64,000 nucleotides of DNA from Leucoraja ocellata (GCA_036785375.1 JAWMAR010000040.1:806001-870000); one strand, 5' to 3'; positions 1,965 through 61,941 are shown, counted from the stretch's first letter. Notes: generated by a model not told the origin, from the letters alone. Numbers and translations: made by a program.

Positions 1965-2727
1965 CGTGGGGGCGCTGAGAGTCGGCTGCCCTGCCAGCAG
2001 CGTGTTCGTTATTTCGGCTTTTTTTGTGTGTCTAATGTTAGTTTGGGTGTCTTTTGATGTGTCTTGTGTGGGGGGTGGTGGGGGGGGATAAAAGGGGGGA
2101 ACCGCTTTTGGTCGCCTCCTCGACGGAGAGGCGACTTTTTCCATGTTGCCTCCCTCGCGGCCTAACAGCATGGATTGGAGCGGCCTTTCCCGGAGTTGGG
2201 CCCGGAGCATCGGCAGCAGGTGCAGCGTGGACTTTCCATTGCGGAGCGGGGCGAACCCTTGTCGGGGATCGCCAGAGAGGAGTGCTCCCATCGCTGGCCT
2301 AATGATGTTGACATGGGGGGGGGGGGCTGTGGTCTGCACAGCTTCTAGCCGCGGGCGTGGCATGGACTTACTATCCGGAGCCTGGGATCCCTAGCCGGGG
2401 ATCGCCCGAGAAGAGCTCCGACCACCGGCCTGCGGCCTATAACATCCTGAAGCCACGGTCGCCGGTAGGAAAGTGCCGAGTTGGGACCTCCAAGTGTGTT
2501 TGCCCGTCCCAACGTCGGAGGATTGAACATCCCGATAAGAGGGGCTGTACATCCGGCCGTCCGTAGTGGTGACTAAGAGGGGTTATGGTCCCGACCACTG
2601 GTGAACAAAGGAGGAGGACTGGCTGAACTTTGTTGCCTTCCACCACAGAGAATTGTATCACTGCTGACAAATTCATTTCACTGCACCTTCGGGTGCATGT
2701 GATGAATAAAATTGACTTTGACTTTGA
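1965..2727 (+). mobile_element. GC-rich non-autonomous retroposon, copy A
   Basis: T-tract, G-tract, GGAGA hairpin, GCGGCCTAACA, GGAGCGGCC, TTGCCTTCCACCACAG, 3' stem-loop TGCACC-TTCG-GGTGCA, AATAAA, (TTGACT)n. Confidence 0.65.
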
Positions 2728-3949
2728 ACAACCACATAACCTTTTTTGAGTTATCCCAGTGCCAAAAGTTAATGGGTAATGGACGGAGTTGAGAGAATGC
2801 ATGCTGACTCATTCCTCACTGTGGGCATCAATGTCAACTAAACCAGCATGAGCTATTTGACATCTGTGGCAACCTCCATTGTTTTTACAGACCAACCTCC
2901 AGCATCCTATCATCAGGAGTACTCCAGGAACCTAACCAAAATTAACTGCTCATTCTTTCGGAATTCTCAAGAGAGTAAATTTCATACAAGCTTCAGGAAC
3001 CTGATGGTGCTTAGGTCTTCGTATGTGTAAACTCATCATCCCAATTCCAATCCTCAGTGGGGTCTTCCCCATTTTTTTTCCTACATCCTTCAAATGTAAG
3101 TGTTTCTGGCAAGGCTGGCATTAATTGCTCCTTCACTAATAGATCATATGTAGGTGCGGTGGCTCTTGTGAACAGCTCCTTACGTGCTGAAGGCTCTCCC
3201 TTAACCTTGTTCACTTGGGACTTCCAGAAATTCACACAGGATGATAATAGAGAAAGATCTATGTCGAAGGCAGGTTGACATTCAACCTGGGGAACTTGGA
3301 AATAGTTTTCCCTGCTTCTGCTGCAATGATGGAGCTTGTCTTTTATATAAATGCCTCCATAGAAGAGTGGATGAGGTACTGCAACTTATTTCTTAATGCT
3401 ATGGTATGCCTGTAATAGAGAAAATCATGTTTAATCAGGGAGATACTGATTGAAGAAGTATGTGAAGAGATTTAAAAGCTTCGGATCTGATAATGAATGG
3501 TTCATTACTCTCCTGTGCCCAGCTGTGTACATATGGTTAATCAAGTCAAACTATAGAGTTGAGAATGATATAACCTTTTGATTGGTAACATATTTTTGGC
3601 CTTATTGGACTTCTGATGTTCTGTGACCAAGCCATCTTTTGCATATAATCAGGCTATTTGTCTTTTTAACAATTTGGATAGCAGATGGGACTTCTTGTAG
3701 TGGTTGTATTCAGCTCCTTGGCAGTACTTATTGCTGATCATCAAGCACTGGTACTGAGCTCCTTTGATCTTCTTGCAGTTGCATCCATTTGTGAGAGCAA
3801 AATATTTTCTACCAACCTCCTGATTTGTGCCACATAGAGGTTTTACTGAGTGAGAGCACCAGAATACATGGTCCTGTTTTAATACTCAGGATATTTACAG
3901 TGCTTATCTGCCATTGCTTTCTCATGCCCCCATTTAGCCCTCATGATTT

Positions 3950-5360
3950 CTTCCTTAACCTCCTCAATTCCCTATAGCTCTCCATGGATACACTTGATCC
4001 AAACTGCCTGCACTTTACCCATGTCTTCTTTATATTTCCCGACCAGAGATTCAATGTCTATCATCATCCAGGGTTATTTACTCCTACCTGCCTTACCCTT
4101 CATTCTGTAAGGAACATGTATACCTTGAACTTACATTATTATACTTTTAAAGACATCCCACTTTTCAGACGGCCTTTTGCCTACAAATAAACTTTGCCTT
4201 CAATGAACCTTTGCAGGTTCCTGTCTCATACCAACAATGTTGGCCTTGCCCAAATTTAGAACTTTAATTTGTGGACCATCCCTATCCTTACCCACACTAT
4301 TTTACATCTAATAGAACCGCTGGCCTGAAAAAGCTCACGTACTGACTCCCTCCCTTAACCAGGTTTCTAAAATGGCCGTAACGTCTCAGTCGCACAAACT
4401 TATCCACACCTGAGTTCATCCACCTTATCTGTCAGGCCCCTTGCATTGAAATAAATACAATTTAATACAATTGTCTTTCCTTGCTTCTTACCATGCTTAC
4501 CATACCAAGAGTATAGGAGCAGGGAGGTTCTACTGCAGTTGTACAGGGTCTTGGTGAGACCACACCTGGAGTATTGCGTACAGTTTTGGTCTCCAAATCT
4601 GAGGAAGGACATTACTGCCATAGAGGGAGTGCAGAGAAGGTTCACCAGACTGATTCCTGGGATGTCAGGACTGTCTTATGAAGAAAGACTAGACAGACTT
4701 GGTTTAAACTCTCTAGAATTTAGGAGATTGAGAGGGGATCTTATAGAAACTTACAAAATTCTTAAGGGGTTGGACAGGCTAGATGCAGGAAGATTGTTCC
4801 CGATGTTGGGGAAGTCCAGGACAAGGGGTCACAGCTTAAGGATAAGGGGGAAATCCTTTAAAACCGAGATGAGAAGAACTTTTTTCACACAGAGAATGGT
4901 GAATCTCTGGAACTCTCTGCCACAGAGGGTAGTTGAGGCCAGTTCATTGGCTATATTTAAGAGGGAGTTAGATGTGGCCCTTGTGGCTAAGGGGATCAGA
5001 GGGTATGGAGAGAAGGTAGGTACGGGATACTGAGTTGGATGATCAGCCATGATCATATTGAATGGCGGTGCAGGCTCGAAGGGCTGAATGGCCTACTCCT
5101 GCACCTAATTTCTATGTTTCTATGTTTCTATGTTTCACCTGTCCTGTCTCCTGAATGTACTGTGATTGATGTCAACGTCGACTTCCAGCCTCTCGCCTAC
5201 CTCGTTACTGCATTAGATCTCATCCCCCTACTAATCTAGTTTAAACCAATTACAGTGAGTAGTACCTACCAACCTGCCCACTAGAATATTGATCCCCTTT
5301 CAGTTCAAGTGCAACCCATCCATCTTCGCAAGATCACCTCTGCCCCAGAAGAGATCCCAG
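3950..5360 (-). mobile_element. Older CR1 LINE (ORF1 esterase end and ORF2 endonuclease start), split by the 4509-5135 insertion
   Basis: Minus strand WDLFWGRGDLAKMDGLHLN (SGNH-esterase-like ORF1) near 5310-5360, and LNCIYFNARGLTDKVDELR (APE start) at 4400-4470. Confidence 0.6.
4509..5135 (+). mobile_element. CR1/HER1 LINE, 5'-truncated 3' end, young
   Basis: Uninterrupted ORF YRVLVRPHLEYCVQFWSP...[13 protein letters not shown]...TRGHSL...FFTQR..NLWNSLP, then 3' UTR and (TTTCTATG)n tail. Confidence 0.9.
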
Positions 5361-5384
5361 AAGAACAAAAATTCAAGTCTAGTC

Positions 5385-6500
5385 AAGTCAAGAGACTTTA
5401 TTGTCTTGTGTCCCAGATAGGACAATGAAATTCTTGCTTGCTGCAGCACAACAGAATATTAGATTAGATTAGATTAGAATCTTTATTTGCCACGCAACCA
5501 GGGTTGGTGGTATTTGGGTTCGGTACATGATGGTACACTGCTTTAGTTACATACCACTAATAACACAGATCACCGTAATAAAGTGCATCCATACCACATC
5601 ACAAATCACAAATCTCACCAACAATACATAGTGCAAAAGAACAAACAAAGACCATAGACAAGACACTGTATACATCAAAAGTCATATTATTGTCTGATTA
5701 TTGGACGGAATTAAGAGTTCTTATTGCTGAGGGGAAGAAACTGTTTTTAAAACGAGTGGTTTTAGTAGCAAGTGACCTGAGGCGCCTCCCTGAAGGGAGA
5801 GACTGAAAAAGGTGATTTGCTGGATGGGACAACACCTTACTCTTCTTGGGCACCGGTATTATTGATGCCCTTTTAAAGCAGGTGGGAATCTCAGACCTCA
5901 GAAGTGAGAGGTTGAAAATGTCCGTAAAACTCCAGCCAGTTGGTCTGCGCAGGTTTTTAAACAATGACCGGGTATACCATCAGGTCCAGGCGCTTTTCGA
6001 GGGTTCACCCCTCCTGAAGGATCTTCTGACGTTGGCCTCTGTGACTGTGACTGAAATACCGTCATGGCGAATGGGGACTCGGGAAGGCACATCAGTGTTC
6101 TCCCTATCAAAGTGTGCGTAAAATGCTTTGAGCTCATCAGGGAGTGATGCTTCGCTGACATTTTAGCTGTCTCCTGATTTTACCTTGCAGGAGGTGATTG
6201 CATTCAAGCCCCGCCATAGTTGCCAAACGTCCGTCTCATCCTCCAGCTTGGAGCAGATGTCCCTTTTGGCCTTTTTGATAGCCTTACCAAGGTCGTATCT
6301 TGTAGACCTCTGATCTCCAGACCTGAATGCCTGGGATCTGGTCTTCAGAAGAATGCAGATTTCATGGTTCATCCAAGGCTTCTGGTTAGAAAACACTCAG
6401 AAGATTTTTTGTTGGGATGCAGTCCTCCACACATTTCTTTATGAAGAATGTAGCAACTGTGGCGTATTCATTCAGGTCCGTTGCCGAGTCCCTGATCCCT
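5385..6500 (-). mobile_element. Rex1/Babar-like LINE, internally deleted and chimeric with a second 3' end (5460-5835)
   Basis: [40 protein letters not shown], then LPSGRRLRSL..KTTRFKNSFFPSAIR. Two different microsatellite tails. Confidence 0.8.
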
Positions 6501-6969
6501 GCTCCAACCACACAGTCACACGTTTATCTATCCTATCCTCTGATTCCTACCCATGTGAGCATATGGCACTGCGAGTAATTTGGAGATTACTAACCTTTTC
6601 CTACCTATCTCATTTGTGCTAATGTGCACAATGACTTCTGTCTGCTCATCCCCCTCCTTGACGATGTTCTCCTGGGGATTCATGCACTCTCCCTTTCCCT
6701 TTCACGGTGTCACTCATCTATTTTCTGCCTTTGTTCAAATTTGAAACTGAGTCGTAGTCTCACAGCACAGAAACAGGCCCTACAGTCCAACTCAACAACA
6801 CCTCATCGTGGTCTTGTGATCATAAGAACAAAAACAAGTATTAGGAGTAGGCCACTCATAAATTTAAGTCTGCCCTGCCATTAAATATGATCTTAGCTGA
6901 AGTGCCCCAGGCCCCATCTCCTCTGCTGTGCCATCAGTTCCTTGTTTTTCAAATAACTACTGTCCGAGT

Positions 6970-7989: not shown

Positions 7990-9045
7990 CGACACTTCCC
8001 TACCATTTCTTGACCTCACTATCTCCATCGCAGGTGATAGACTTCTGACCGACATCCACTATAAACCCACTGACTCCCATGGCTATCTTGATTACTCTTC
8101 TTCCCACCCTGCTTCCTGTAAGGACTCCATCCCCAACTCCCAATTCCTCCGTCGACACCGCATCTGCCACCCCCACCCCCACTATAGATGAGGCTCTCAA
8201 CAGGGTCTCTTCCATACCCCGTAACACTGCACTCCCCATCCTCCCACTCATAACAAGGGCAGAGTCCCCCTAGTCCTCACCTTTCACCCCACTAGCCATC
8301 ACATACAACAAATAATCCTCCTTCATTTTCGCCACTTCCAACATGACCACACCACTCGCCACATCTTTCCATCTCCCCCCCCCCGTCTGCTTTCCGCAAA
8401 GACCGCTCCCTCCGTAACTCCCTGGTCAATTCTTCCCTTCCCACCCGCACCACCCCCTCCCCGGGCACTTTCCCATGCAACCGCAAGAGATGCTACACTT
8501 GTCGCTTTACCTCCCCCCTCAACTCCATTCAAGAACTCAAGCAGTCGTTCCAGGTGCGACAGAGGTTCACCTGCATCTCCTCCAACCTCATCTATTGCAT
8601 CCGCTGCTCTAGATGTCAGCTGATCTACATCTGTGAGACCAAGCGTAGGCCGAACACCTCCGCTCGGTCCGCATTAACCAACCTGATCTCCCAGTGGCTC
8701 AGCACTTCAACTCACCCTCCCATTCCGAATCCGACCTCTCTGTCCTGGGCCTCCTCCATTGCCAGAGTGAGGACCACCGGAAATTGGAGGAGCAGCACCT
8801 CATATTACGCTTCGGCAATCTGCACCCTAGCGGCATAAACATTGAATTCTCCAATTTCTAGTAACCCTTGCTGTTTCCTCCCCCTCTCAGCTCTCCCTCA
8901 GCCCTCGGGCTTCTCCTCTTCCTTTTTCCTTTCTTCTCCCCACCCTACATCAGTCTGAAGAAGGGTTTCGGCCCGAAACATTGCCTATTTCCTTCGCTCC
9001 ATAGATGCTGCTGCACCCGCTGAGTTTCTCCAACATTTTTGTCTA
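7990..9045 (+). mobile_element. Penelope-like element 3' part (RT thumb, GIY-YIG endonuclease, terminal repeat with hammerhead motif)
   Basis: LPFLDLTI...YKPTDSHGYLDYSSSHPASCKDSIP and FTCISSNLIYCIRCSRCQLIYICETKR. CTGAAGAAGGGTTTCGGCCCGAAAC at 8955-8979. Confidence 0.85.
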
Positions 9046-9723
9046 ACATAGAAAGGTACAGCATAGGAACAAGCCCTTCGGCCCACAATGTCTGTGCCAA
9101 ACAAGTTAATCTCCTCTGCCTGCACATCATCTATATCCCTCAATACCCTGCTTATCCATGTGTCTATTTAAAGGCCTCTTAAACACCACTATCATTTCTG
9201 CTTCCATCACCACTCCTGGCAGCACGTTCTAGGCACCCACCATTCTCTGCGCCCCTCATTCTGAGATGCTCCACACATTAAAACTTTCCCCTCTAAAGCT
9301 GTACCCTCTAGTTTTTGACAAAGTCTCTTGTTTCTAAGTAAACAACCCCATCTTATATTCCTTAACAGTGCTATTATCTTCCAGTCCTGACATTATGCTT
9401 GTAAACGTTCAGTGCTCCCTTGTCAGTCTAATCACATCTTTCCTCTTTTATGTTTTAAAGGTATAAAGTATCCAAATGACAGTCTAACCAATGCTGTATG
9501 CAGTTGCAGCAAAACTTTCCTCCTCTTACGAACCATGTGGTTTTTTAACCACCGTGTTTACCTGTCCTGATACCTATAAGAAGCTGTGGCTGTACACATG
9601 CATATCTGTTTAGTCCTTCACACCACTCAACTACTTCCTGCTTTGTGTGTGTTCCCATCCTTTCTTTACACTTCTTCAAATACTTTACTTCACATTCCCA
9701 GGCATCAAATTACATTTTCTACC

Positions 9724-11028: not shown

Positions 11029-11550
11029 CTAGACTAAGTGGGACCCGTTGGGTACCAGTCACCACAGGGCGTGTGAGCTAGGGGTGGGGGTGGGGGTGGG
11101 GTGGGAGGTGAGGTAAGTATGTGGGCATGAGGGGTTTGCGAGGGGGGGAGGAGAGATGTGGGGGGGAGTGGTCGCCGGCTGCTGGTCGCTTCGCTGGATG
11201 TTAATTTGTGTTTATTGTGTGTTGTTATTATTACATGTATGGCTGCAGGCAACGACATTTCGTTCAGACCGAAAGGTCTGAATGACAAATAAAGGATTCA
11301 ATTCAAAATTGCTGGCCGCTTCGCTGGTCGTTATCCTCTGCCGGGATCAGAGTCATTGCTTCACATCGGTGCCATCTCCGACTACACGCCGGGCTGGGCT
11401 GGGCCGGGTCGGGCTAGGTCGGGCCGTTTCCCGTCCCTCTGTCCGAAAACTATGTCCGGTTGGAGACCACCAACCGGACATCCAGAGCCTCCCGCAGCTG
11501 CAGTAAAGACGCGATGGCACAGGAAAGGGCGGACCGTCCCACGTAGTGGC
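11029..11550 (-). mobile_element. Putative non-autonomous Helitron, 3' terminus at 11029
   Basis: Minus strand GGTACCC-AAC-GGGTCCC hairpin, 7 nt, CTAG then T, which is canonical Helitron 3' end geometry. GC-rich body; 5' end not found. Confidence 0.5.
11198..11309 (+). mobile_element. 112-bp retroposed LINE/SINE 3' tail with 18-bp TSD
   Basis: TGCTGG(T/C)CGCTTCGCTGG at 11180-11197 and 11310-11327. Stem-loop TTCAGACC-GAAA-GGTCTGAA, AATAAA, (ATTCA)n. Confidence 0.75.
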
Positions 11551-14323: not shown

Positions 14324-14819
14324 CAACTCTATGCTAAAACTATTCATAATTTTGAATTGGCCTACCATAAGAGTCCTTATACTTTTTAAAGAGAAAACCC
14401 CAACCACAAGTTGCCACATAACTAAAATTCCTTATCTTTGAAACAATACTTCACAAAGGTGATTGGCCAGTTGAGCTTGTTTTGTGTAGTATTTTGAGAG
14501 GAAGGAATGTATATGAAGAATGTTGTCTAACATGAAAAATAAGGCCTTTTGTATGCACCCACCTTTGAGTTACTAGCTTTCCTGAGGTTGTTGAAAAGTT
14601 TAAGCTAATTTAATTCAATGATGCATACAACAAGATCTTTCAAATAAAACATTGGGGTTCAGTTCAATGTGAATTTCCATATATTTTGCTATTTCAATTC
14701 CTAAAGAACTTCTGCGATCTTCTGTCATGGAATGCAATAACTTTCGTTAAAATTAATCTAAATTGAAATAACTACTTAAGAAACACACCTATTCACTCAA
14801 AATAATAGGAATACTATTT

Positions 14820-15388
14820 TATTCAGATTCAGATTCAGATTCGATTTTAATTGTCATTGTCAGTGTACAGTACAGAGACAACGAAATGCATTTAGCATCT
14901 CCCTGGAAGAGCGACATAGCAAACAATTTGAATAAATAGTAATAAGGGGGGGGGGGGGGGGGGGGTGGTGATGAGGGGCAGTCCACCGAGGTACGTTGTT
15001 GCGTAGAGTGACAGCCGCCGGAAAGAAACTGTTCCTCGACCTGCTGGTTCGGCAACGGAGAGACCTGTAGCGCCTCCCGGATGGTAGGAGGGTAAACAGT
15101 CCATGGTTGGGGTGAGAGCAGTCCTTGGCGATGCTGAGCGGCCCTCCGCAGACAGCACTTGCTTTGGACAGACTCAATGGAGGGGAGCGAGGAACCGGTG
15201 ATGCGTTGGGCAATTTTCACCACCCTCTGCAATGCCTTCCGGTCAGAGACAGAGCAGTTGCCATACCATACTGTGATGCAGTTGGTAAGGATGCTCTCGA
15301 TGGTGCAGCGGTAGAAGTTCACCAGGATCTGAGGAGACAGATGGACCTTCTTCAGTCTCCTCAGGAAGAAGAGACGCTGATGAGCCTT
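14820..15388 (-). mobile_element. Rex1/Babar-like LINE 3' end
   Basis: NFYRCTIESILTNCITVWYGNC..DRKALQRVVK and LPSGRRYRSL. Tail (GAATCT)n. Confidence 0.85.
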
Positions 15389-16704
15389 CTACTAGGTTCT
15401 TGCCATTACCATAGTCTACTAGGTTCTTGCCATTATTCCAATGACCAATGCATCCCACAAGAAACGGGATTGGCCGGCATTCACTATGGGCTGTCTAAAA
15501 TCCACGTGTGGCACCGAGTTTATAAATGAATGAAAATTGAAAACTTTTCATGGTTGATATTTATAGACGACATGAAAGATTTATTGCTGAAACCTTAAAA
15601 TTTATTTTTCTAAGGAGGCCTTCAGTTCTATTTTTGGATTTTATTTAAAATTCAAGCCCCAAGGATAATTTGATTCACCATTAGAACAACCTCTATAACC
15701 ATATTCTCTTATTCTTCAGTCCTTTATGTGTCATCTCCCACCCAACCCCAACTACCCTTTTAATTCTCAGCAATTTCACATTGGAGCCTACACATTCAAG
15801 TTTTTAACCTAGTTCAAGGAAGAATCTATCAAAGAGGCAAAATGTGATGGCTCAGTAACATTGTGAGCCAGGCTGCAGCCTTTCACTCCAACCTCCAATC
15901 GAGCAGCATGATGGATGTCCCCTCACTTGAAGTCCCCATATCCTTGATTCTGATGGCCCTAAGAGCTATATCTAATTATCTCTTGAATATACCCAGTGAA
16001 TTGGCCTCCACTGCCTTCTGTCAGAGAATTCCACAGATTCACAACTGTTTTTGTTTTTTTATTATGAGGTATTGTGTGATTGTCATTGATGATAAAAAAA
16101 ATGAATTTAATCTATTTAGAATAAGCCTGTAACGTAACAAAATGTGGAAAAAGTTGTCTGAATACTTTCTGAATGCACTGTAATTCCCTGTTTTCTCTCT
16201 CCCTCCTTTCTTAAAAAGTGGGGTTCCATTAGCTACCCTCTGCAGGAACTGATCCAGAGTCCATGGAAACTACAGAGTTGATGTAAATCAACGGAAATAG
16301 CAAATGGGCTAAATGTAGAATTAGCGTAAATTCTACAAGTCGATGGTTGGCGCAGATGAGGTGTGCTGAATAGCCTTTTGGTCCACTACATCCACACTTA
16401 TCAGTGTGCATCCATCTTTATTAATCCTAGCACATGCCCAGACCATTCAACACACCTCTTCAGTGCTGCCAGCGACTCAACTTCAGTGTTATATGTCTTG
16501 ATGTCTTATGGAGGCATTCAGAGGCTTGAGCACCAAATCTAGGCAGGCCCTCGAGCGTTGGCTTACTGGTGTGCTGCAATGTTCAAGGTGCAACCTCCAA
16601 CTTAAAATGTTACGTTGATCTACCGTTACTGCAATTTCTGATCAAACATTCTTTCCCACCTGGGTCCCAGATCACTGTCCAACATCACTAAAATGCATGG
16701 CAGA

Positions 16705-17590
16705 AAAAAATGTTGGAGAAACTCAGCGGGTGAGGCAGCATCTATGGAGCGAAGGAAATAGGCAATGTTTCAGGTCGCGACCCTTCTTCAGACTGATGTG
16801 AGGGTGAGAGCGGGAAGAAGAAAGGAAGAGGCGGAGACAGTGGGCTGAGGTAGAGCTGGGAAGGGAAGGAGAAAGCCGGGACTACCTGAAATTGGAGAAG
16901 TCAATGTTCATACCGCTGGGGTGTAAACTGCCCAAGTGAAATACGAGGTGCTGCTCCTCCAATTTACGGTGGGCCTCACTCTGGCCATGGAGGAGGCCCA
17001 GGACAGAAAGGTCGGATTCGGAATGGGAAGGGGAGGGGAGTTGAAGTGCTGAGCCACCGGGAGATCAGGTTGGTAATTGCGAACCGAGCAGAGGTGTTGG
17101 GCGAAGCGATCGCCAAGCCTACGCTTGGTCTCACCGATGTAGAGCAGTTGACACCTAGAGCAGCGGATGCAATAGATGAGGTTGGAGGAGGTGCAGGTGA
17201 ACCTCTGTCGTACCTGGAAAGACTGCTTGGGTCCTTGAATTGAGTCAAGGGGGGAGGTAAAGCGACAAGTGTAGTATTTCCTTCGGTTGCAAGGGAAAGC
17301 GCCAGGAGAGGTGGTGGTTTAGGTGGGAAGGGACAAATTGACCAGGGAGTGACGGAGGGAGCGGTCTCTGCGGAAAGACGATGGGGAGGAGGTAGGAAGA
17401 TGTGGTCAGTGGTGTGATCCTGTTGGAGGTGGTGAAAATGTTGGAGGATTATTTGTTGTATGTGACGGCTGGTAGGGTGGAAGGTGAGGACAAGGGGACT
17501 CTGCCCTTGTTACGAGTGTGGGGATGAGGAGTGAGAGCAGAGTTACGGGGTATCGAAGAGACCCTGGTGAGAGCCTCATCTATAGTAGAA
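16705..17590 (-). mobile_element. Penelope-like element, second copy
   Basis: Reverse complement of the 8180-9040 region (TIDEALTRVSSIPRNSAL, GIY-YIG region). Hammerhead motif at 16765-16791. Confidence 0.85.
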
Positions 17591-33134: not shown

Positions 33135-33859
33135 CACCAGGAGACTTTGTCAGTGATAGCAGCCTCGTCTTTTCGTCTATTTTGTTTTAAAAAGTATGTG
33201 TTAATGTTCTCTGGTTTGTTTTGTGTGGGGACGGGGGGAAACTTTTTTTTCAATCTCTTGCCTTGCTGGAGATGCGATTGTTATGCGGAAGGTATCTCTG
33301 GTCGCTCTGCGGCCTAACATCATGGAACTGGCGGCCTTGCTCGAGTCTGACTTTGAGTCCCACCATGGGGCCGTGGACAAACAATCAGAGCCTGCGATCC
33401 CTTGCCTGTGATCGGCGCTCCAACCACGGCCTGCGGATTCTAACATCGAGAAGCTCACAGTCTTGGATAGACTGATTTTGGGAAGCTCCAAAGTCACAAA
33501 TGGTTCAACCAGCCCCGACCTGGGGTCCGATTGCCCGGCGTGGGGAGCTGAGATCTCCCCGATGCGGGAGCTTGATCGTCCCGAAGCAGAGGGCCCGACC
33601 GCCAGCTACGGAACCCAAGATTGTCCTGTCAATGGAAGGCTCGAGGCCCCCAGCCGCGGGAGAACAATAAAAGGGAAGAGATTGAACTTTTCTTTTCGCC
33701 TTCCATCACAGTGAGGAATGTGGAGGGGTCACTGTGGTGGATGTTTATGTTACAATGTATTCTGCGTGTTTTGTTGCTTTTTATTGGTATGACCATGGCA
33801 AATCAAATTCCTTGTATGTTGCAAAACATACTTGGCTAATAAAGTATGATTATGATGAT
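33135..33859 (+). mobile_element. GC-rich non-autonomous retroposon, copy B
   Basis: Same module order (GGAGATGC..GTATCTC, GCGGCCTAACA, CGCCTTCCATCACAGTGAGG). Tail GTATGTT-GCAA-AACATAC, AATAAA, (TATGAT)n. Confidence 0.65.
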
Positions 33860-36226: not shown

Positions 36227-36324
36227 CTGGAGTTGGAGTGGGGTTGGGCTGGAGTTGGAGTGGGGTTGGGCTGGAGTTGGAGTGGGGTTGGGCTGGAGTT
36301 GGAGTGGGGTTGGGCTGGAGTTGG
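36227..36324 (+). repeat. 22-bp minisatellite, about 4.5 perfect copies of CTGGAGTTGGAGTGGGGTTGGG
   Basis: Units start at 36227, 36249, 36271, 36293 and 36315. Confidence 0.95.
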
Positions 36325-38792: not shown

Positions 38793-39563
38793 GTATGATA
38801 CAATGATACAATTTATTTGTTATCATTTGAACCTCATTGAGGTTCAAATGAAATTTGGTTTCTGCAGCCATACACACAAGAAAAAGAACCAAGACACAAC
38901 ACAATTTACACAAACATCCATCATAGTGGATCTCCTCCTCACTGTGATGGAAGGCAAAGTCTTATCTCTCCCCTGCACTCCTCATTCTCCTCCCGATGTC
39001 AGAGTCAAAGCCCCAGCGGGCGATGGTAAGCAAGTCCCGCGGCCATTAAAGCCGCGCCGGGCGATGTAAGGCCCCGCTGCAGGTACTTTTCAACCCCGCA
39101 AGTTGGGCGGGAGCAGTCGCCGTTGCGGAAGCCCCGAAAAGCAGTCTCCCACCAGGGACCAGCGAACTCCTGGTGTAACTGTCCACCAGACCTGCGGTTG
39201 GAGCCTCCGAATCTCTGGGGTCGGGTCGCAGCCGCGTGCCACCACAGCTCCTCCCGCTCTGAACTCAGCCAGCTCCATGATGGTAAGTAGTCCGCAGCTC
39301 CGTGACTGGAGCCCCAGGTCGTTCCGGTTGGAGGCCGCTCCACGGTGCTAGGCCCCAACGACAACGGAGACCCGACAGGGAAAAGGTCGGGTTCTCCATG
39401 CAGGGGAAAGATTTTAAAAGTTTCCCCAACCCCCACCCCCCGCCCCCACACACATACCCAGTTTAAAAAAACACTTTAAACTACATTCAAACGAGACAAA
39501 AAATAAAAAACGACAGACGGACTGCAGAGGCCGCTGCGACGTGAGTCGCGCCGCCCACCCAAC
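38793..39563 (-). mobile_element. GC-rich non-autonomous retroposon, copy C
   Basis: Reverse complement closely matches copy E at both ends (GGCGGCGCGACTCAC; hairpin; GGGGCCTAGCACCGTGGAGCGGCCTCCAACC; TTGCCTTCCATCA; TTTGAACCTC/GAGGTTCAAA tail). Confidence 0.7.
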
Positions 39564-41549: not shown

Positions 41550-42422
41550 ATATTAATGTGATTTATCCAGGTCCTGATTAATGGTGGCCTACTCATTACC
41601 TACTACCTCCTGCTGTCCGTCCTTTCACCCTTATTTATTTTTATTTTTAGTCCTGTTCATATCAGGTGTTTATTGGAGGTCTTCTTTTATGTGGTGGGTG
41701 GGGGAGGGGAAGGGGGAAATTATTTTTAACCCCAGTCCTACCTGGTCGGAGATGCGGTTTTTCTCCGAACCGCATCTTCGTCCTCTCTGTGCGGCCTAGT
41801 CGAACTGGAGCAGCGCTGAGCGGCGTTTCCTGCGGGGACTGCAGCTTCGACGGCGGTGTAGATGCTGGGACATCTACAAGGAGCGGGCGATGCCTTACCG
41901 GGTCGCCTTGCGGTAATCTCCGGGGCACTGTGACCGTCGACGGCACCGCGGAGCCTGGGATCCGAGATCGCCAGTGTCGGGGGTTCGGCCGGCGCGGCCT
42001 GTGAACTTTGGTCGTTGCAGTCTTCAGGGGGGGGGAAGCGGCCGCTTCAGTCCTGGCCGCTGATGGATGTTCACCGACGCCGATGGTCCAGCTTCACGGC
42101 AAGGGGGCCTGAAGACACCGGGCTGGCTGAGGAGGCCAGATATAGGCCCCGACCTCGGGTGGACTATGAGGGGGAGAACTGGATATTTTTGGTGCCTTCC
42201 CTCACAGTGAATTCTGCTGTGGGGGGACGTTTCATGTTGATTTCTATAGTGTACTGTTCTGTGTCTTTTTTCTTATTCTCTTTTTTCTCTTTTTTGATTT
42301 GTATGGATTTATTGCATTGATCTGTTCAATTAATTTAATCAATCTCTGTAAAGCACTTTGGTTCAAATACTGGTTTTGTTGAAAAGTGCTATATAAATAA
42401 ATATTATTATTATTATTATTAT
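41550..42422 (+). mobile_element. GC-rich non-autonomous retroposon, copy D, with 28-bp target-site duplication and L2-type tail
   Basis: Flanked by TACTCCTGCACCTATTGTCTATTGTCTA at 41522-41549 and 42423-42450. Ends TGTAAAGCACTTTG...AAAAGTGCTATATAAATAAAT(ATT)n. Confidence 0.75.
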
Positions 42423-42484
42423 TACTCCTGCACCTATTGTCTATTGTCTATTGACCTTTACATGTTTACGGATTTAGCCATATC

Positions 42485-49300: not shown

Positions 49301-50020
49301 CTGTCGGGTCCATGGCCCGTCCACAACATCCAAATACAAGCAAATATTTATTACATCTATTGCAGAAATTTGCATTTTCACAGTAAATCTAAGGGTTTTG
49401 ATTTTGTTGACTACACTAAAGGAAATAAAAATGTTCCTGTTTCCATGTTCCATACACCTATTATTTGCATATAACTTACACTAACTTTCTGGTTCACTAA
49501 GGTGATTTAATGGCAGTTTTTGGGACATGATTTGTCTGTGGTAAGGAATAAAATACATTTGCGTCCTTAGAACTTCTCAAAATGCTCTTCTGTATTCATT
49601 ACTGCACTTCGAAATAACATCGGACTAGTCCAGTTATTCTGCACTATTGATTCCTTTTATTTTGAATCGTTTATAAGTGCTCCATTCGCCTTCAAGTGCA
49701 ATGGTTGTCACGTTGGATCCAGTTTGTTAGGTGGACAAGCTTGGCATCCAACAGAAACTGAATGATCGATCAGTTAAACTACTTTTAATGTGATCTTGGA
49801 GCGAGTTGTGTTAGTCAGGAGAGGTTTTCTACACTTCATCAAATATTCCTGTGAAATCTTTCATCTCTCTTTCAAATCAAATTATTTCAAAATTATATCT
49901 GAAAGGTAATATCTGCAACAGGTAATATCCCAACATACAGGCCTGAAATGCTAGCCATAATTTAATTCCTATGATCTCAAATTTCGATGCGTATGCTAAA
50001 ATAAGCATACGCATCGAAGC

Positions 50021-51116
50021 ACGCTGAGCACCGGCTCCCCTCAAGGCTGTGTGCTCAGCCCTCTGTTGTTCACTCTGCTCACACATGACTGTGCTGCCAG
50101 ATTCAGGGAAAATAAAATCATAAAATTCGCGGACGACACTACAGTGGTGGGACTCATCAGTGGAGATGACGAAACAATGTACAGGGAGGAAGTAGAACAA
50201 CTGGTGGACTGGTGCGGCAAAAACAACCTAGAATTGAATGTCGACAAAACTAAGGAGATGGTTGTCGACTTCAGGAGGGCGCAGCCAAAGCATACACCGC
50301 TCAACATTAGTGGCACTGCAGTGGAGAGAGTGGAGAGCATAAAGTTCCTCGGTGTGCAAATAACGGACAGCCTCACCTGGTCCAGGAACACCACTGGGAC
50401 CGTCAAACGGGCCCATCAGCGACTGCACTTCCTGAGGAAACTAAAACAGGCCTCACTCCCCACCAACATCCTCAGGACTTTCTACAGGGGCACGGTGGAG
50501 TCTGTACTCACGTACTGCATAAATACGTGGTACTCCACCTGCAACTGTTCGGACAGGAAGGCTCTGCAGAGGGTAGTGAGGGGAGCAGAGAGGATCATTG
50601 GCGTCTCCCTACCCTCGGTACAAGAACTGTTCCAGAGCCGCTGTCTGAAGAAAGCACAGAGAATTGCCAAGGACAAACTGCACCCCCTCCACGCACACCT
50701 GGATCTCCTGCCATCAGGCAAGAGATATCGTAGCATCAAAGCCCGGACTACGAGGCTGCTAAACAGCTTCCTACCACAGGCTGTGAGGCTGCTAAACAGT
50801 CACTCTGCACTCACAGTCACTTGACTTGACTCTGCGGCTGGCACGGACACTTTAATACTGGCACTGGCCACTCAAATCAGCGGCCCCGGACATTTTTATG
50901 ATTGGTTTATTGAATTTTAACATTGTGTTTTTTTTACCTGCTTTTAACTATTTATACTGTTCCATCAGGGACTGGATTGTTTTTAGTGTTATTATGTGTG
51001 AAGTGTTTAATTTCATGTGCGATGCTCCGCTATTCACTGGGAAACGTCTTTTCATTTTGCACTGTAACAACTGTTGCTTGCAAGATGACAATAAAGGTTG
51101 ATTGATTGATTGATTA
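50021..51116 (+). mobile_element. Young 5'-truncated Rex1/Babar-like LINE with an uninterrupted RT C-terminal ORF
   Basis: ORF 50051-50824: LSPLLF...[12 protein letters not shown]...KRAHQRLHFLRKL...TTRLLNSFLPQAVRLLN. Tail (TTGA)n; candidate TSD ATCTCAA. Confidence 0.92.
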
Positions 51117-56300: not shown

Positions 56301-57196
56301 GAAGTATGATAAATTTCCCCCCCAACCCGGTGAGATTAAATGAAGTACAAAATATGCAAGCACTCTGGATCCTGCCTCTGACCAAAATCTACTCCTGATC
56401 GTGAGTCTGACACACACTTGCCTTGCATTCTGGACCACGGGCCCAGATTATGGGCTAATGTGCCGGATGCTCGGAGTTTACTAGAGACAATTTGACTCTC
56501 TTCTGGTGAGTTTCAAATAACTGGAGACTCTGGACTTTGTGGATTGCTTCCCATATTACAGAAGCGAGCAAGCGCAGCCATTGAAGACACAATACACCAT
56601 CTCATCCAATATGCCAACACAGATTTATGGTGAAAAAGAATTTAAACCAATATCTCATACTCAATACCAAGCATCTTGAAAGGCATGATGTACTTCAAGC
56701 CTTTCTCATCAGGCATGTGGATGCATCATTTCTCATCTACTTATTTATGTTCTGCTTTCTTTTCTCCTGCACCATCACCCCTTTATTGTTATTTGATCTC
56801 TTACTTTCCACCCCTATGATTGACCTATTTAATCCCCCTCCTCTTAATCCTCCTGCCTGCTCCTCTCCCATGAATATTAGAATAAAAGCAGCAAATGCAA
56901 CTTTGCTGAAATACTGTACTCCAAATAAGCAGGTATCTTTTGTCATTTGTCACCAAGGTGTTGTGTGGACATGCAAGGGCTGTTGATCCTGAGCCACCAG
57001 CAATAAGTTGGAGATCAAGTTCCCATTTCATTCAACCCCTGTCTTGAGTGGGAATAGTTTATTTCAAAAGAATTGGAGGGAAGCCAAAATTAAAATGAGA
57101 GAGAAAGAGAGCGTCTGAGAAAAGATAAGCAACCTGCATAAATGAGAATCCGAAAGTGTTCCATGAATAAATAGCAAAAGGACAGTGCATGGATTT

Positions 57197-59908
57197 CAAG
57201 AGTTCAAGAGAGTTTTATTGTCATGTGTCCCTGATAGGACAATGACATTTTTGCTTTGCTTTAGCACACCAGAACATAGTAGGCACTAATACTGAACAGA
57301 TCAGTGTGTCCATATACCATTGCATAAATATATACATACATGAATAATTAAACTGATAAAGTGCAAATAAACAGATTATTGGCTATTAATGTTCAGAGTT
57401 TTGTCCGAGCTGACTTTAATAGCCTGATGGCTGTGGGGAAGAAGCTGGTTCCTGAACCTGGTCGTTGCAATCTTCAGGCTCCTGTACCTTCTACCTAAAG
57501 ATAGTGGGGAGATGAGTGTGTAGCCAGGATGGTGTGGGTCCTTGATGATGCTGCCAGCCTTTTTGAGGCAGCGACTGTGATAGATCCCCTCGCTGGATGG
57601 GAGGTCGGACCCAATGATGGACTGGGCAGTGTTTACTACTTTTTGTAGTCTTTTCCGCTCCAGGACGCTCATGTTTCCGAACCAAGCCACGATGCAATCT
57701 GTCAGCATACTCTCTACTGTGCACCTGTAGAGGTTAGAGAGAGTCCTCCTTGAAATACCGACTCTCCGTAATCTTCTCAAGAAATAGAGGCGCTGATGTG
57801 CTTTCTTTATGATTGCATCACTGTTCTCGGACCAGGAAAGATCTTCAGAGATATGCACGCCCAGGAATTTAAAGCTCTTGATCCTTTCCCCCATCGACCC
57901 ATTGATATAAACGGGACTGTGGGCCCCCATCCTCTCCCTTCCAAAGTCCACAATCAGTTCCTTGGTATTGCTGGTGTTGAGGGCCAGGTTATGTGCTGGC
58001 ACCATTTGGTCGGTCGATCTCGCTTCTGTACTCTGACTCGTCCCCATCAGTTATATGTCCCACAATGGTGGTATCGTCAGCGAACTTGATGATGGAGTTT
58101 GCACTATGACCGGCTACGCAGTCATGAGTATAGAGTGAGTACAGCAGGGGGCTAAGCACGCAGCCTAGAGGTGCTCCCGTACTGATTGTTATCGAGGCGG
58201 ACACATTTCCACCAATACGTACTGACTGTGGTCTGTGAATGAGGAAGTCGAGGATCCAATTTCAGAGAGAGTTTGTTAACCAGAGGGGATGATTGTATTA
58301 AATGCCGAGCTGTAATCAATGAATAACTGCCTGACATATGAGTTTTTGTTGTCCAAGTGGTCCAGAGCGGAGTGGAGAGCCAGCGAGATCGCATCCACTG
58401 TTGATCTGTTGTGGCGGTAAGCGAACTGCAGAGGGTCCAGGTTTTTGTCGAGGTAGGAGTTGATTTGCGCCATGATCAACCTCTCAAAGCACTTCATCAC
58501 CACAGACGTTAGTGCCACTGGTCGATAGTCATTGAGGCACGTCACCTTGCTCTTCTTGGGCACCAGTATAATTGATGCCCTTATAAAGCAGATGGGAACC
58601 TCAGAAGTGAGAGGTTGAAAATGTCCGTAAAAACTCCAGCCAGTTGGTCTGCACAGGTTTTTAAAACACGCCCGGGTATGCCATCAGGTCCAGGCGCTTT
58701 TCGAGGGTTCACCCCTCTGAAGGATTTTCTGACGTCGGCCTCTGTGACTGTGACTGAAATACCATCACAGCAATGGGAGCTTGAGAAGTCACATCAGTGT
58801 TCTCCCTGTGCGTAAAACGCATTGAGCTCGTCAGGGAGTGATGGTTCGCCGATATTCGAGCTGCCTCCTGATCTCGCCTTGTAGGAGGTGATTGCATTCA
58901 AGCCCTGCCACAGCTGACGAACATCTGTCTCATCCTCCAGTTTGGAGCAGAAGGCCCTTTTGGCCTTTTTGATGGCCTTACCAAGGTCGTATCTGGACTT
59001 CTTGTAGACCTCTGTATCATCAGACATGAATGCCTGGTGTCTGGTCTTCAGAAGAGTGCGGATCTCAAAGTTCATCCAAAGCTTCTGATTGGGAAACACT
59101 TGGAAGGTTTTTGTAGGGATGCAGTCTTCCACACATTTCTTTATGAAGTCTGTAATAAACTGTGACGTATTTGTTCAGGTTTGTTGCCGACTCCCTGAAC
59201 ATTGCCCAGTCTACAGACTCCAAACAGTCCTGCAGTTGTTCCTCTGCCCCCTCTGCCCCCTCCTCCCCCCCCCCCCCCTCCCCCCCCCCCCCCCACCGAC
59301 CAGCTCTGTGCAGTCCTCACCTTGGGGGGGGGTGCGCTCTTCAATTGCTGCCTGTAGGCAGGAAGAATCAGCCTACAGTATGGTCGGTATTTACCAAAGT
59401 GAGGGCGAGTGATAGAGGATAAGAAGGAACTGCAGATGCTGGAAAGTCAAAGGTAGACAAAAGTGCTGGAGAAACTCAGCGGGTGATTGTGGTGTAGCAG
59501 TGATCGAGGGTGTTGGTCCTCTGGTGCAGCAGGAGACATGTTGGTGGAAGTTTGGGAATGATTTCTTCAGGTTCGCTTTATTGAAGTCCCCAGCTATGGT
59601 GGTGAACGCCTCGGGGTAAGACGTTTGGTGCTTGTTGACCAAGGCGTGCAACTCCTCCAGTGCCAGACGGACGTCTGCCTGGGGTGGGATGTAGACCGCG
59701 GTCAGGATGATGGAGGTGAATTCCCTTGGGAGGTAGAAGGGGCGGCACTTCACCGCCAGATGTTCGCGGTGTGGAGAGCAGGAGTTGGACAGAACTGTCA
59801 TGTCTGAGCACCACGCAGAGTTGACCATGAGGCAGACGCCCACTCCTCTCCCGTTCCCTGATGCCAGTGTGCGATCCATACGGTGGATGGAGAACCCTTC
59901 AGGCTGGA
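57197..59908 (-). mobile_element. Rex1/Babar-like LINE, endonuclease through 3' end, frameshifted
   Basis: APE motifs (GVCLMVN, TAVYIPP, IAGDFN) and RT motifs ([25 protein letters not shown]). Tail (CTCTTGAA)n. Confidence 0.92.
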
Positions 59909-59989
59909 TCCATTTAGCACAAAAATGGGAGCTTGCACATTAATGCTAAAGGGCAGTGTTATGGTAGTAAATGCATACAAAGCACTTAT

Positions 59990-60625
59990 CTTCACAAGGG
60001 AGGAGAGTGCTTCCAAATTAATAGTGAATGAGGAGCCGTCTGAGACACTGGATACATTAAGAATTGATAGCAAGTCATCATGAATTATGGACTGCACATA
60101 AGGATTTTGAGGAAAGTACAAGAGGAAATTGCAGAGACACTAACCTTGATCATTCAATGCTCTTTGGATATGAGGCAAGTGCCAGAACACTGGAGAGTGG
60201 CAAATGTTAATCCCCATTGTTGGGAAAAGGGAGTAAGGTTAACTTTAGCAAATACAGACAAATCATTTTAACTTTGATGGTGGCAAAACTTTGGGAAACA
60301 TTAGGAAAAGAGTAACAATCACCTGGAGGAACATGGATTAATGAAGTCAAGCCAGCATGGATTTGTTCCTGGTAAAACATCTTGATAGAATTTATCGATG
60401 AGTGTATTGCAGATGATATGTGGGCTTTTGATAAAGTGCTCCATAATATGTGTATCTACAAAGTAGAAACACGTGACATAATAAAAGGACACTATGAATA
60501 TTAAATTGACTAATGAGGAGACAGCAGAGGGCAGTGTTCTTTGGGCCATTGTTTTTCTTTCATCCATATTAAGGACCAGGAATGCAGACCCAAACTTTTA
60601 AATTTGCAGATGATACAAAATATGG
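59990..60625 (+). mobile_element. Old CR1 RT fragment
   Basis: RILRKVQEEIAETL..VPEHWRVANV, SQHGF, KFADDTK. Confidence 0.7.
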
Positions 60626-61065
60626 TGGTATCAAGGAATCTAAGTGGGTGCGGTATCTGAGGATATGTGGAAATCATTTAAAGTGGCAGGTTGAGAATAC
60701 GGCTAATACGACATCAGCAAATTTGCTCTGCCACTTTCAATTATTTCCCACTGTTCCGACACCCTTTTGGAATAATATCTATGATTCGGTATTGCCTCTT
60801 CTCATTCTCCCCACCAAAATATATCAACTCACATTTCTCACATCAAACTTGTATCATGACCGCGTAGTAGCCTTCACGCTACACTGACATACTGGCAATC
60901 TTTCATCTTCCTGCAAAACTGATGCAGGGTCTGGACCTCAAACACCAACTTACATCTTTTGCTTCCATGAATACTGCATGACCCATGAGTTCTTAAAGAA
61001 GTCTGTGGAGTAGTTTCCTACTTTATTTCTCAGCTATGTCAGTGGGAATGCCTCCATGAGGGAGA

Positions 61066-61941
61066 TTGGTTGGTTGGCGGCGCGACTCACCAGTTGCAGT
61101 TGCAGCGGCCCCTGCAGCCTGTCTCTGTCTTTTTTTATTTTTTGTCTAGTTAAATGTAGTGTTGGTGTTTTTTAATACTAGTTTTAAATGTGTATATGTG
61201 GGGGGGTGGGGGGGCGGGGGGAACCGTTAAAAAATCTCTTCCCTGTTCGGGAGACCCGACCTTTTCCCTGTCGGTCTCCGTTGTCGTTGGGGCCTAGCAC
61301 CGTGGAGCGGCCTCCAACCTGAACGACCCGGGGGCTCGGGAGACTGCGGAGCTGCGGAGCTGCGGACTACTCACCATCGTGGGGCTGGCCGGCCTCGGAG
61401 CGTGGGGAGCGGTGGTGACTCGCTGCTGCAACTCGACTCCTGGGGCTCGGAGGCTCCAGCAACGCAGCCACAGGTCCGGTGAACTGGGACATCGGGAGCT
61501 CGCGGGTCCGGGGGAAGAGAGAGACCGCTTCCCGGAGCTCCCGCAACGCGACTTCTCCAGCCCGTGTCGCGGGGTTGGAACGACCCGGAGCGGGGTCGAA
61601 CATCGCCCAGCGCGGCTTCATGGCCGTGGGACATTCCAGCGCCTGCCGGGGGCTCCAACTTTGTGACATTTAGACCGGGAGCGGGGCCGTAAATCGCCCG
61701 GCACGGCCTAAAATGGCCGTGGGACTTATCATCGCCCACCTGGGGCTTGGATATCGGGAGAGACATGGAGAACAGGGGAGAGAAAAGACTTTGCCTTCCA
61801 TCATGGATGGATGTTTGTGTGAATTAAATTGTGTGTATGTCTAGGAAATTGTCTTTGTTTGTATGGCTGTGGAAACAGAATTTCGTTTGAGCCTCACTGG
61901 GGCTCAAATGACAATAAAATTGTATTGTATTGTATTGTATT
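61066..61941 (+). mobile_element. GC-rich non-autonomous retroposon, copy E
   Basis: Same modules. Tail TTTGAGCCTC..GGGGCTCAAA, TGACAATAAA, (TTGTA)n. Confidence 0.7.

What the first reader, a model, noticed from the sequence alone, without database searches (positions are those of the whole stretch)
1965..61941. Five-copy GC-rich retroposon family with a covarying hairpin and no tRNA head
Copies at 1965-2727, 33135-33859, 38793-39563 (minus), 41550-42422 and 61066-61941 have divergent middles but one module order: T-tract, G-tract, GGAGA hairpin, G(C/G)GGCCTA, GGAGCGGCC-like box, GC-rich body, GCCTTCC(A/C)(T/C)CA, LINE tail. The stem changes while pairing is kept: GAGGCGAC/GTTGCCTC (2128-2152), GAGATGC/GTATCTC (33269-33298), GAGATGCGGTT/AACCGCATCTT (41749-41778), GAGAC(C)CGAC/GTCGGTCTC (about 61251-61278). 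Most loops are TTTTCC-like. No A/B boxes or coding ORF are evident. Inference: a structured RNA or internal-promoter module is conserved in a SINE-like superfamily that I cannot assign.
Basis: partly seen in the sequence, partly recalled or inferred. Interest (0 to 1): 0.7.

Follow-up and report, generated by a model that had tools for sequence, protein, structure and literature searches.

The report
Rex1-headed jumping element, conserved hairpin core
These are copies of an abundant non-coding jumping element, probably from a ray or skate, that borrows its front and back ends from LINE retrotransposons and carries between them a conserved folded-RNA core whose job is not yet known.

Summary
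The five copies are real members of one high-copy family. Four tails look Rex1-type and one L2-type. Between them lies a CpG-rich core not seen in the visible first 400 nt of those LINE consensuses. The GGAGA hairpin holds: 51 of 54 cells pair, and 4 of 11 columns change on both sides. That count is not significant on its own (p 0.02-0.06, structure-chosen register). Copies 3 and 5 (83% alike) share 66 substitution-free columns over hairpin and GGCCTAG box (p 0.0005). A second hairpin follows GCCTTCC. One stranded RNA library shows about 9:1 strand bias against 1.6:1 for CR1, with no sharp start. No tRNA, Rfam or ribozyme match. Verdict: a bipartite-like non-autonomous Rex1/L2 derivative with an added conserved core; a new variant of a known kind. 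The core's function is inferred only.

The parts
1965..2727 (+). Copy 1, full element. Leader of a second Rex1/L2-like class (1971-1989), T-tract, G-tract, core, Rex1-type tail ending in TTGACT repeats
   Evidence: leader class judged by eye against consensus rows
2111..2155 (+). Copy 1 hairpin 1 (2125-2155) with a competing upstream arm (2111-2119)
2159..2186 (+). Copy 1 GGCCTAA...GGAGCGGCC box, first unit of a degenerate internal repeat
33135..33859 (+). Copy 2, full or slightly 5'-shortened element, Rex1-type tail
33268..33299 (+). Copy 2 hairpin 1 (8 bp, weakest)
33702..33741 (+). Copy 2 hairpin 2 (13 bp) after GCCTT
38793..39559 (-). Copy 3, full element; family 5' edge at 39559
39530..39555 (-). 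Copy 3 Rex1 5' leader motif (GGCGGCGCG...GCAGCGGC)
39326..39397 (-). Copy 3 conserved block: hairpin 1 (39397-39366) plus GGCCTAG box (39354); 39392-39326 has no substitution against copy 5
38917..38955 (-). Copy 3 GCCTTCC motif and hairpin 2
38793..38851 (-). Copy 3 tail: stem-loop, AATAAA, short repeats
41550..42424 (+). Copy 4, L2-type tail ending in (ATT)n. 5' edge 41550 or about 41610; a 28-nt CR1-tail stretch lies on both sides
   Evidence: the L2 label of the tail is recalled, not tested
41748..41779 (+). Copy 4 hairpin 1 (strongest, -20.4 kcal/mol)
42199..42225 (+). Copy 4 hairpin 2, with a double-sided change against copies 2 and 3
61070..61941 (+). Copy 5, full element, same subfamily as copy 3 (83% identity), with an internal duplication of about 90 nt
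61076..61109 (+). Copy 5 Rex1 5' leader motif
61250..61319 (+). Copy 5 conserved block: hairpin 1 (61250-61279) plus GGCCTAG box (61291)
61883..61941 (+). Copy 5 tail stem-loop, ATGACAATAAA and (ATTGT)n; matches a profile of tails attached to Rex1-type ORFs
   Evidence: E 0.022
11179..11307 (+). Sixth, tail-only fragment related to the copy 3/5 tail; may equally be the end of a partner LINE

Best explanation
A high-copy group of non-autonomous non-LTR retroposons of a cartilaginous fish (ray- or skate-like; host inferred). Each element has three parts: the short 5' leader and T-tract of a Rex1- or L2-type LINE; a shared CpG-rich core (G-tract, hairpin 1, GGCCTA box repeated in decayed form, GCCTTCC hairpin 2); and the 3' stem-loop and microsatellite tail of a partner LINE. 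It is transcribed by RNA polymerase II, from the leader and CpG-rich core with loose start sites or inside host transcripts (inferred). The partner LINE's reverse transcriptase recognises the tail and inserts it by target-primed reverse transcription (from established LINE/SINE biology, not shown here). Subfamilies have changed heads and tails while keeping the core. The core most likely acts as folded sense RNA that lets this non-coding transcript persist and be copied in trans; I put an RNA-level role at about 60% and cannot name its partner. Shown: family, copy abundance, head origin for copies 3 and 5, retention of pairing, extra conservation of the core, strand bias in one library. Inferred: polymerase, partner LINE, function of the core.
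For: Family: leave-one-out profiles, 5 of 5. Abundance: summed contig depth over copy 3 of 7e4-1e6 (X3) and 4e5-2e6 (X5) against about 20-55 in unique flanks; not a copy number. Head: pattern GGCGGCGCG-N-GCAGCGGC hits copies 3 and 5 only, chance 0.00. By eye it sits at the very 5' end of 3 of 19 little-skate Rex1 and 2 of 14 Hypanus Rex1 consensus rows, with near matches in 5 more (PMC13343379 supplement). All 3 library hits of two head words lie in the first ~35 nt of Rex1 rows. Tails: stem-loop, AATAAA-type word and short repeats as in tails attached to Rex1-type ORFs in this window; copy 5 matches their profile (E 0.022). Core: 51 of 54 cells paired against 44.2 in column shuffles; cognate arms rank best in 1 of 24 whole-arm permutations of four lineages. 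66 substitution-free columns between copies 3 and 5, p 0.0005. Five G-U pairs against one A-C on the sense strand; 5 of 5 fold better on the sense strand. Hairpin 2 in 3 of 5 copies. RNA: strand ratio 9.0 (copy 3) and 8.6 (copy 4) against 1.61 for CR1 in stranded run X21; sense if the library follows the usual convention. CpG observed/expected 0.73-0.89 against 0.42 for the window.
Against: Heads of copies 1, 2 and 4 are matched to LINE leaders only loosely and by eye. Only 1 of the 5 element tails (copy 5) scores against the Rex1-tail profile; the L2 label for copy 4 is recalled. The heads of copies 3 and 5 lack the AAGATGG start that the Rex1 rows show, so the presumed YY1 site is damaged. 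X21 shows no sharp start, and 841 reads run from 39559 into varied upstream sequence, so initiation at the element's first base is not shown. The unstranded run X24 shows nothing above CR1-like background. The reads come from related organisms and other copies; the unique flanks of these loci have almost no RNA depth. On the unfitted MAFFT alignment the pair counts do not exceed shuffles (202-260 of 500). The both-sided count in my register has p 0.02-0.06 and the register was chosen from the folds. Copy 2's 5' arm folds better with the arms of copies 3, 4 and 5 than with its own. Only 1 of 5 copies has a flanking duplication, and it is ambiguous.
Confidence: 0.7

Rival explanations
1. The core works as DNA: a CpG-island-like Pol II promoter or enhancer. 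The 'hairpin' is an inverted repeat (GGAGA...TCTCC reads alike on both strands) bound by a dimeric factor or kept by template-switch conversion, and the repeated GG(A/C)CT(A/T)ACATC word is a factor site. The element frame is as in the best explanation.
For: The hairpin model also matches the opposite strand of copies 3, 4 and 5. CpG-rich core. A degenerate 18-mer recurs at 20 sites in 4 of 5 copies (score 236 against 151-191 in three shuffles, which used 40 seeds against 120). Copy 1 has a second, perfect upstream arm, the kind template switching makes. Strand-biased RNA fits a promoter.
Against: Upper-stem letters differ among lineages while pairing is kept (three pair types at one column), which a sequence-reading factor would not need. 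G-U pairs favour the sense strand 5 to 1 (small numbers).
Confidence: 0.25
2. The core is part of the UTR of an autonomous Rex1 or L2 lineage that I could not see, and the elements are ordinary internal-deletion derivatives.
For: Some Rex1 consensuses have long GC-rich 5' regions with similar short words (ScyCan_Rex1-3, LeuEri_Rex1-15, LeuEri_Rex1-7). The paper notes repeated subunits near the 5' UTR of ORF1-less elements. Only the first 400 characters of each consensus were visible, so 3' UTRs were not checked.
Against: Six core words gave 2 hits in the library, both in unrelated context. In the ray Rex1 rows seen, leader and T-tract run into ORF-like sequence without G-tract or hairpin (by eye). 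The Rex1 3' UTRs in this window lack GCCTTCC(A/C)(T/C)CA. One core with several heads and tails is not what a single deletion gives.
Confidence: 0.2
3. The core is a self-cleaving ribozyme that trims host co-transcripts, as in R2, RTE or L1Tc. GGCC-UA(A/G)-CA...UG-GAGC-GGCC resembles the P1/L1/P2 half of a twister.
For: A twister-half descriptor gives 18 hits in the window; the 3 with short loops are copies 1, 3 and 5. RNA enters the element from upstream.
Against: No L4 loop in 18 of 18 half-hits, and the 3' side reads GAGCG where the published examples have GAGGG. GGCC pairs with itself. No Rfam ribozyme hit in the copies. An HDV descriptor that finds the control at 29308-29258 finds 0 hits in the copies. 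The element's 5' edge lies about 200 nt upstream of the UA. About 29% of X21 reads and 17% of X24 reads lack single letters at 39349 and 39351, inside this box.
Confidence: 0.05
4. A SINE with a small-RNA head (SINEU-like). Parts of the core recall the 5' end and first stem-loop of U1 snRNA (resemblance recalled, not from a call).
For: ACTTACC/ACTCACC words in copies 3 and 5, which read as 5' splice-site-like words on the opposite strand.
Against: No U1 or other snRNA hit over any copy at E up to 10. The head is a LINE leader.
Confidence: 0.03

Closest known systems
Bipartite ORF-less non-autonomous LINEs (RIME, NARTc, Bov-A, RTE-N; PMC5786205 section 23)
   Same: LINE 5' end joined to a LINE 3' end, no ORF, no tRNA head, presumed Pol II transcription and mobilisation in trans.
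   Different: That review lists only RTE, Ingi, Vingi and R2 as sources; here the ends are Rex1- and L2-type. About 500 nt of core lies between the ends and was not traced to the LINE; no 5' ribozyme.
SINE superfamilies with a conserved central domain (CORE, V, Deu, Ceph, Meta; PMC5786205, PMC5499810)
   Same: A shared central block kept while heads and tails are exchanged between families.
   Different: Those carry tRNA or 5S heads with Pol III boxes and are short; these are 725-875 nt, have no A/B boxes and begin with a LINE leader. I could not align the core to those domains (no library at hand).
GC-rich-headed bird elements BuceSINE and ManaSINE2 (PMC4844689 figure legend)
   Same: Non-tRNA, GC-rich element of unclear transcription that uses LINE-derived ends.
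   Different: There the GC-rich part is the head, upstream of a bipartite RTE tail; here it lies between a Rex1 leader and a Rex1- or L2-type tail.
Autonomous Rex1 of rays (LeuEri_Rex1-1, -2, -9, -12; HypSab_Rex1-5, -11; PMC13343379 supplement)
   Same: 5' leader motif followed by a T-rich tract; tail architecture as in Rex1-type fragments of this window.
   Different: No endonuclease or RT coding sequence; leader lacks the AAGATGG start; G-tract, hairpins and GC core are not in the visible 400 nt.
SVA (recalled)
   Same: Composite, Pol II-transcribed, CpG-rich non-autonomous element with an internally repeated middle that grows by tandem duplication; often transcribed from upstream.
   Different: Unrelated sequence; L1-mobilised with a poly(A) tail. 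Works-like comparison only.

Membership tests
Bipartite non-autonomous LINE | 5' end derived from the 5' end of a LINE | tested here: met
   Copies 3 and 5 carry the Rex1 leader motif; loose for copies 1, 2 and 4
Bipartite non-autonomous LINE | 3' end derived from a LINE tail (stem-loop plus short repeats) | tested here: met
   Architecture in 5 of 5; profile match for copy 5 only, E 0.022
Bipartite non-autonomous LINE | No protein-coding capacity | tested here: met
   Six-frame reading; 0 Pfam hits in 7 ORFs; no homologue for the copy 3 ORF
Bipartite non-autonomous LINE | Made solely of the two LINE ends, both from one parent LINE | tested here: inconclusive
   About 500 nt of core not found in the visible library text; 3' UTRs of the consensuses were cut from view, so head-tail pairing was not checked
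tRNA/5S/7SL SINE (SINE1-3, incl. HE1, SacSINE1, CmiSINE) | Small-RNA-derived head with Pol III A and B boxes | tested here: not met
   ARAGORN 0 genes; no B box in 5 of 5; no Rfam tRNA, 5S or SRP hit
Conserved-domain SINE superfamilies (CORE, V, Deu, Ceph, Meta) | Central block homologous to the named domain | not testable with these tools
SINEU | U1- or U2-derived head | tested here: not met
   No snRNA match over the copies at E up to 10
Twister ribozyme | P1, UAA L1, P2 and 3' GAGGG strand | tested here: inconclusive
   Half-motif in copies 1, 3 and 5, but GAGCG in place of GAGGG
Twister ribozyme | P4/L4 loop and pseudoknots T1, T2 | tested here: not met
   No L4 in 18 of 18 half-hits; no Rfam hit
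HDV-like ribozyme | Nested double pseudoknot P1-P2-P3-L3 with catalytic C | tested here: not met
   Descriptor finds the control at 29308-29258 and nothing in 5 of 5 copies
Non-LTR retroposon (TPRT) | Interspersed high copy number with common ends | tested here: met
   Contig depth and varied flanks beyond 39559; a tail-only fragment
Non-LTR retroposon (TPRT) | Target-site duplication or empty-site allele | tested here: inconclusive
   28-nt duplication at copy 4 only and ambiguous; no joint that skips a whole element among the 15 joints shown, 677 not shown

The most novel reading that the evidence does not exclude
An undescribed superfamily of Pol II-transcribed, LINE-headed retroposons whose structured core is a portable RNA device. 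It has been carried between Rex1 and L2 partners with both head and tail exchanged, and it sets RNA fate: alternative pairings among the G-tract, upstream arm, GGAGA stem and pyrimidine loop could stabilise the transcript or bring it to partner-LINE ribosomes. It would be a conserved-domain SINE equivalent without Pol III, and would add Rex1 and L2 to the few clades known to give bipartite elements.
Probability: 0.35. Interest if true: 0.7.

Novelty: new variant of a known kind. Interest (0 to 1): 0.5.

Why it matters
A 2018 review (PMC5786205) lists only RTE, Ingi, Vingi and R2 as sources of ORF-less bipartite elements and calls the origin and role of conserved SINE bodies enigmatic. A very abundant Rex1- and L2-linked group with a conserved folded core gives thousands of natural variants for a covariation test and a simple reporter test of what such bodies do. 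It also bears on repeat annotation in rays, where Rex1 is credited with 6.6% of the little skate genome (supplement row), part of which may be these elements (inference). CpG-rich, strand-biased copies could also act as dispersed promoters. It may already sit unnamed in Repbase or Dfam, which I could not search.

Tried and rejected
No whole genome was held, so the genome-wide harvest could not be run. Metagenome scan for the 3' motif: 10 of 10 loci match only the 19-mer and lie in bacterial-looking sequence, chance hits. Viral and prokaryote-genome scans: 0 hits. Protein search with the copy 3 reading frame: 51 candidates, none significant, lengths 85-273 only. Run search: no RNA holder listed; RNA evidence comes only from the raw reads laid. 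Rfam: 5 searches, nothing near a gathering score over the copies. First HDV descriptor missed the positive control and was replaced. First register table had copy 1 off by one base and was redone. Pair count on the unfitted alignment showed no signal because MAFFT misregistered the arms. The RNAalifold model R1 and hairpin model R2 found no further full copies in the window. Bacterial promoter scan is not applicable. Earlier-findings look-ups returned nothing. Nine paper searches found no description of this family; the motif search gave 6 papers on unrelated topics (listing only). Considered and rejected: U1-derived head, twister, HDV, coding remnant. An ENE-type U-rich loop and an antisense-promoter reading were considered by eye only. 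Against the latter, strand bias runs along the whole element including the tail.


Full report
Setting. The window is rich in CR1-, Rex1- and Penelope-type fragments: RT, endonuclease and GIY-YIG Pfam hits and a fibronectin type III reading frame. The clade labels rest on recalled protein motifs and on the consensus rows cited below. The host is inferred to be a cartilaginous fish, ray- or skate-like, because the element heads match Rex1 leaders of Leucoraja and Hypanus. No whole genome was held.

The observation. Self-BLAST links copies 3 and 5 over their length and the others only in patches. A profile of four copies finds the fifth in 5 of 5 trials. Pairwise global scores are 301-386 for nine pairs and 824 for copies 3 and 5, against 173-231 for shuffles. 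The copies are 725-875 nt, 50-58% GC, with CpG observed/expected 0.73-0.89 against 0.42 for the window. There is no tRNA gene, no B box, no Rfam family and no Pfam domain in 7 of 7 ORFs.

Abundance and ends. Contigs of two related organisms laid on 38600-42600 at 85% likeness give summed depth of 7e4-1e6 and 4e5-2e6 over copy 3, against about 20-55 in unique flanks. Over copy 4 the depth is 4e4-2e5 in X3 and uneven in X5. The tool warns that this is no copy number; it shows high copy only. In run X21, 841 reads leave the alignment at 39559 into varied sequence (agreement 0.36), which marks the family's 5' edge. Copy 4 has a 28-nt stretch on both sides. However, its first ~60 nt also follow a 90%-alike CR1 copy at 44925-44985, so its left edge is unsettled. 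The other 4 copies show no duplication longer than 6 nt.

The head is a LINE leader. In the supplement of PMC13343379 only the first 400 characters of each consensus were shown. There the pattern GGCGGCGCG-N-GCAGCGGC stands at the very start of 3 of 19 little-skate Rex1 rows and 2 of 14 Hypanus Rex1 rows, with near matches in 5 more, usually followed by a T-rich tract (read by eye). In the window the pattern hits copies 3 and 5 only (chance 0.00). Two words taken from those heads give 3 library hits, all at Rex1 5' ends; two other words gave no hit and one unrelated hit. Copy 1 begins with a GGCGC...GGCTGC leader like other Rex1/L2 rows (weaker). Copies 2 and 4 resemble other leaders only loosely. 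The Rex1 rows start with AAGATGGCG, which holds the YY1 core (GCCAT on the other strand; PMC11602158 passages). Copies 3 and 5 have lost that start.

The tail is a LINE tail. Copies 1, 2, 3 and 5 end in a stem-loop, an AATAAA-type word and short repeats, as do the tails attached to Rex1-type ORFs in this window. A profile of four such tails scores copy 5 (E 0.022) and none of the other four copies. Copies 3 and 5 differ by a compensating change in this stem (alignment). Copy 4 ends in a different stem-loop and (ATT)n that I recall as L2-type. So one core travels with several heads and at least four tail sequences.

The core. Six core words gave 2 unrelated hits in the visible library text. The earlier words gave 6, 14 and 17 hits, of which I saw 6, 11 and 11; none was in a G-tract and hairpin context, although ScyCan_Rex1-3 has a GC-rich 5' region with similar short words. 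Hairpin 1 folds better than all 173 background GGAGA sites in 4 of 5 copies; copy 2 is matched by 11. In an ungapped register from the stem base, with one bulge removed in copy 3 and one gap in copy 5, 51 of 54 cells pair against 44.2 in column shuffles. Four of 11 columns change on both sides (p 0.06 for five copies, 0.02 for four lineages), and the cognate assignment ranks first of 24 whole-arm permutations. The register came from the folds, and the unfitted alignment shows no excess, so this is compensatory variation seen, not significance shown. Independent of folding, copies 3 and 5 are 83% alike over 725 columns yet have 66 columns without a substitution across hairpin 1 and the GGCCTAG box (p 0.0005). 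The next most conserved stretch is around GCCTTCC. That motif opens a second hairpin in copies 2, 3 and 4 (shuffle p 0.000, 0.013, 0.002), collapsed in copy 5 and lost in copy 1. An upstream pyrimidine arm can also pair with GGAGA and wins in copy 1. The GGCCTA box is probably the first unit of a decayed 18-nt repeat found at 20 sites in 4 of 5 copies; the null used fewer seeds, so this is suggestive.

RNA. In the stranded poly(A) run X21, about 6 in 100 of which was read, the strand ratio is 9.0 over copy 3 and 8.6 over copy 4, with opposite mates as their opposite strands require, against 1.61 over CR1. By the usual library convention this is sense RNA. Depth peaks over the hairpin block (5490) and falls to 493 near the 3' motif, which may reflect subfamily mismatch. 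No sharp start or end was found. Reads enter from varied upstream sequence, and the unstranded run X24 shows no enrichment. About 29% of X21 reads and 17% of X24 reads lack single letters inside the GGCCTAG box. These are reads of other copies in related organisms.

How it most likely works. A Pol II transcript, started loosely near the leader or carried in a host transcript, holds a LINE tail that a Rex1 or L2 reverse transcriptase recognises and copies into new sites (established LINE/SINE biology; PMC3747384 and PMC5499810 passages). Source copies that keep the core succeed, so the core is selected. Kept pairing with changed letters, five G-U against one A-C on the sense strand, and sense-biased RNA make an RNA-level role more likely (about 60%) than a DNA promoter role. 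The hairpin model also fits the opposite strand in 3 of 5 copies, so the DNA rival stands. A ribozyme is unlikely.

Comparison and novelty. It works like a bipartite non-autonomous LINE and, in its head and tail exchange, like a conserved-domain SINE. It is not a Pol III SINE. PMC5786205 names only RTE, Ingi, Vingi and R2 as sources of ORF-less bipartite elements. Nine searches found no account of this family, but Repbase, Dfam and most subscription journals were not searchable. The cut parts of the PMC13343379 consensuses bear on whether the core lies in a LINE 3' UTR.

Papers seen. PMC13343379: passages, section 15 and supplement rows cut at 400 characters. PMC5786205: parts 1-2 of 5, passages and section 23. 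PMC8501958: part 1 of 9 and passages. Passages only: PMC7245038, PMC5499810, PMC4844689, PMC11602158, PMC3747384, PMC6274825. SVA, U1 and the L2 tail label are recalled.

Verdict. Observation confirmed; interpretation partly supported; new variant of a known kind; interest 0.5.

Noticed in passing
window 29257-29320 (-); core 29308-29258: CPEB3-like HDV ribozyme fold: Rfam RF00622, 29.3 bits (gathering 35), E 0.001, also found by my descriptor. It seems to open an insertion of about 200 nt inside an old SINE body that I recall as DeuSINE-like. May be a small ribozyme-headed retroposon.
   Followed up: partly
window 35480-36564 (+): GC-rich stretch (61% in 36001-37000) with a perfect 22-nt tandem repeat at 36227-36324 and a C run, directly upstream of a Rex1-type fragment; long open frames on the minus strand without Pfam hits.
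   Followed up: partly
window 40968-41610 (+) and 44925-45574 (-): Two CR1 3' fragments 90% alike in inverted orientation share about 60 nt beyond the CR1 tail; local duplication or a chimeric element. The second is followed by about 200 nt ending in a Rex1-type tail near 44731.
   Followed up: partly
window 8181-9049 (+) and 16697-17586 (-): Two 84%-alike Penelope-like fragments; GIY-YIG domain in the second.
   Followed up: no
window 57196-59939 (-), 36564-37842 (+), 50000-51105 (+), 14819-15390 (-), 5826-6517: Several 5'-truncated Rex1-type LINE fragments with at least three different tails; none carries a tail that aligns at length with those of the five copies.
   Followed up: partly
window 62521-62901 (+): Fibronectin type III reading frame ending near a splice-donor-like site, probably an exon of a host gene in whose introns or flank the repeats lie.
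   Followed up: no
window 39288, 39032 (copy 3) and 61085, 61369 (copy 5): The opposite strand of copies 3 and 5 carries four 5' splice-site-like words and, in 4 of 5 copies, AATAAA; the sense strand has no such splice word. This could make antisense insertions in genes harmful and help explain the RNA strand bias.
   Followed up: partly
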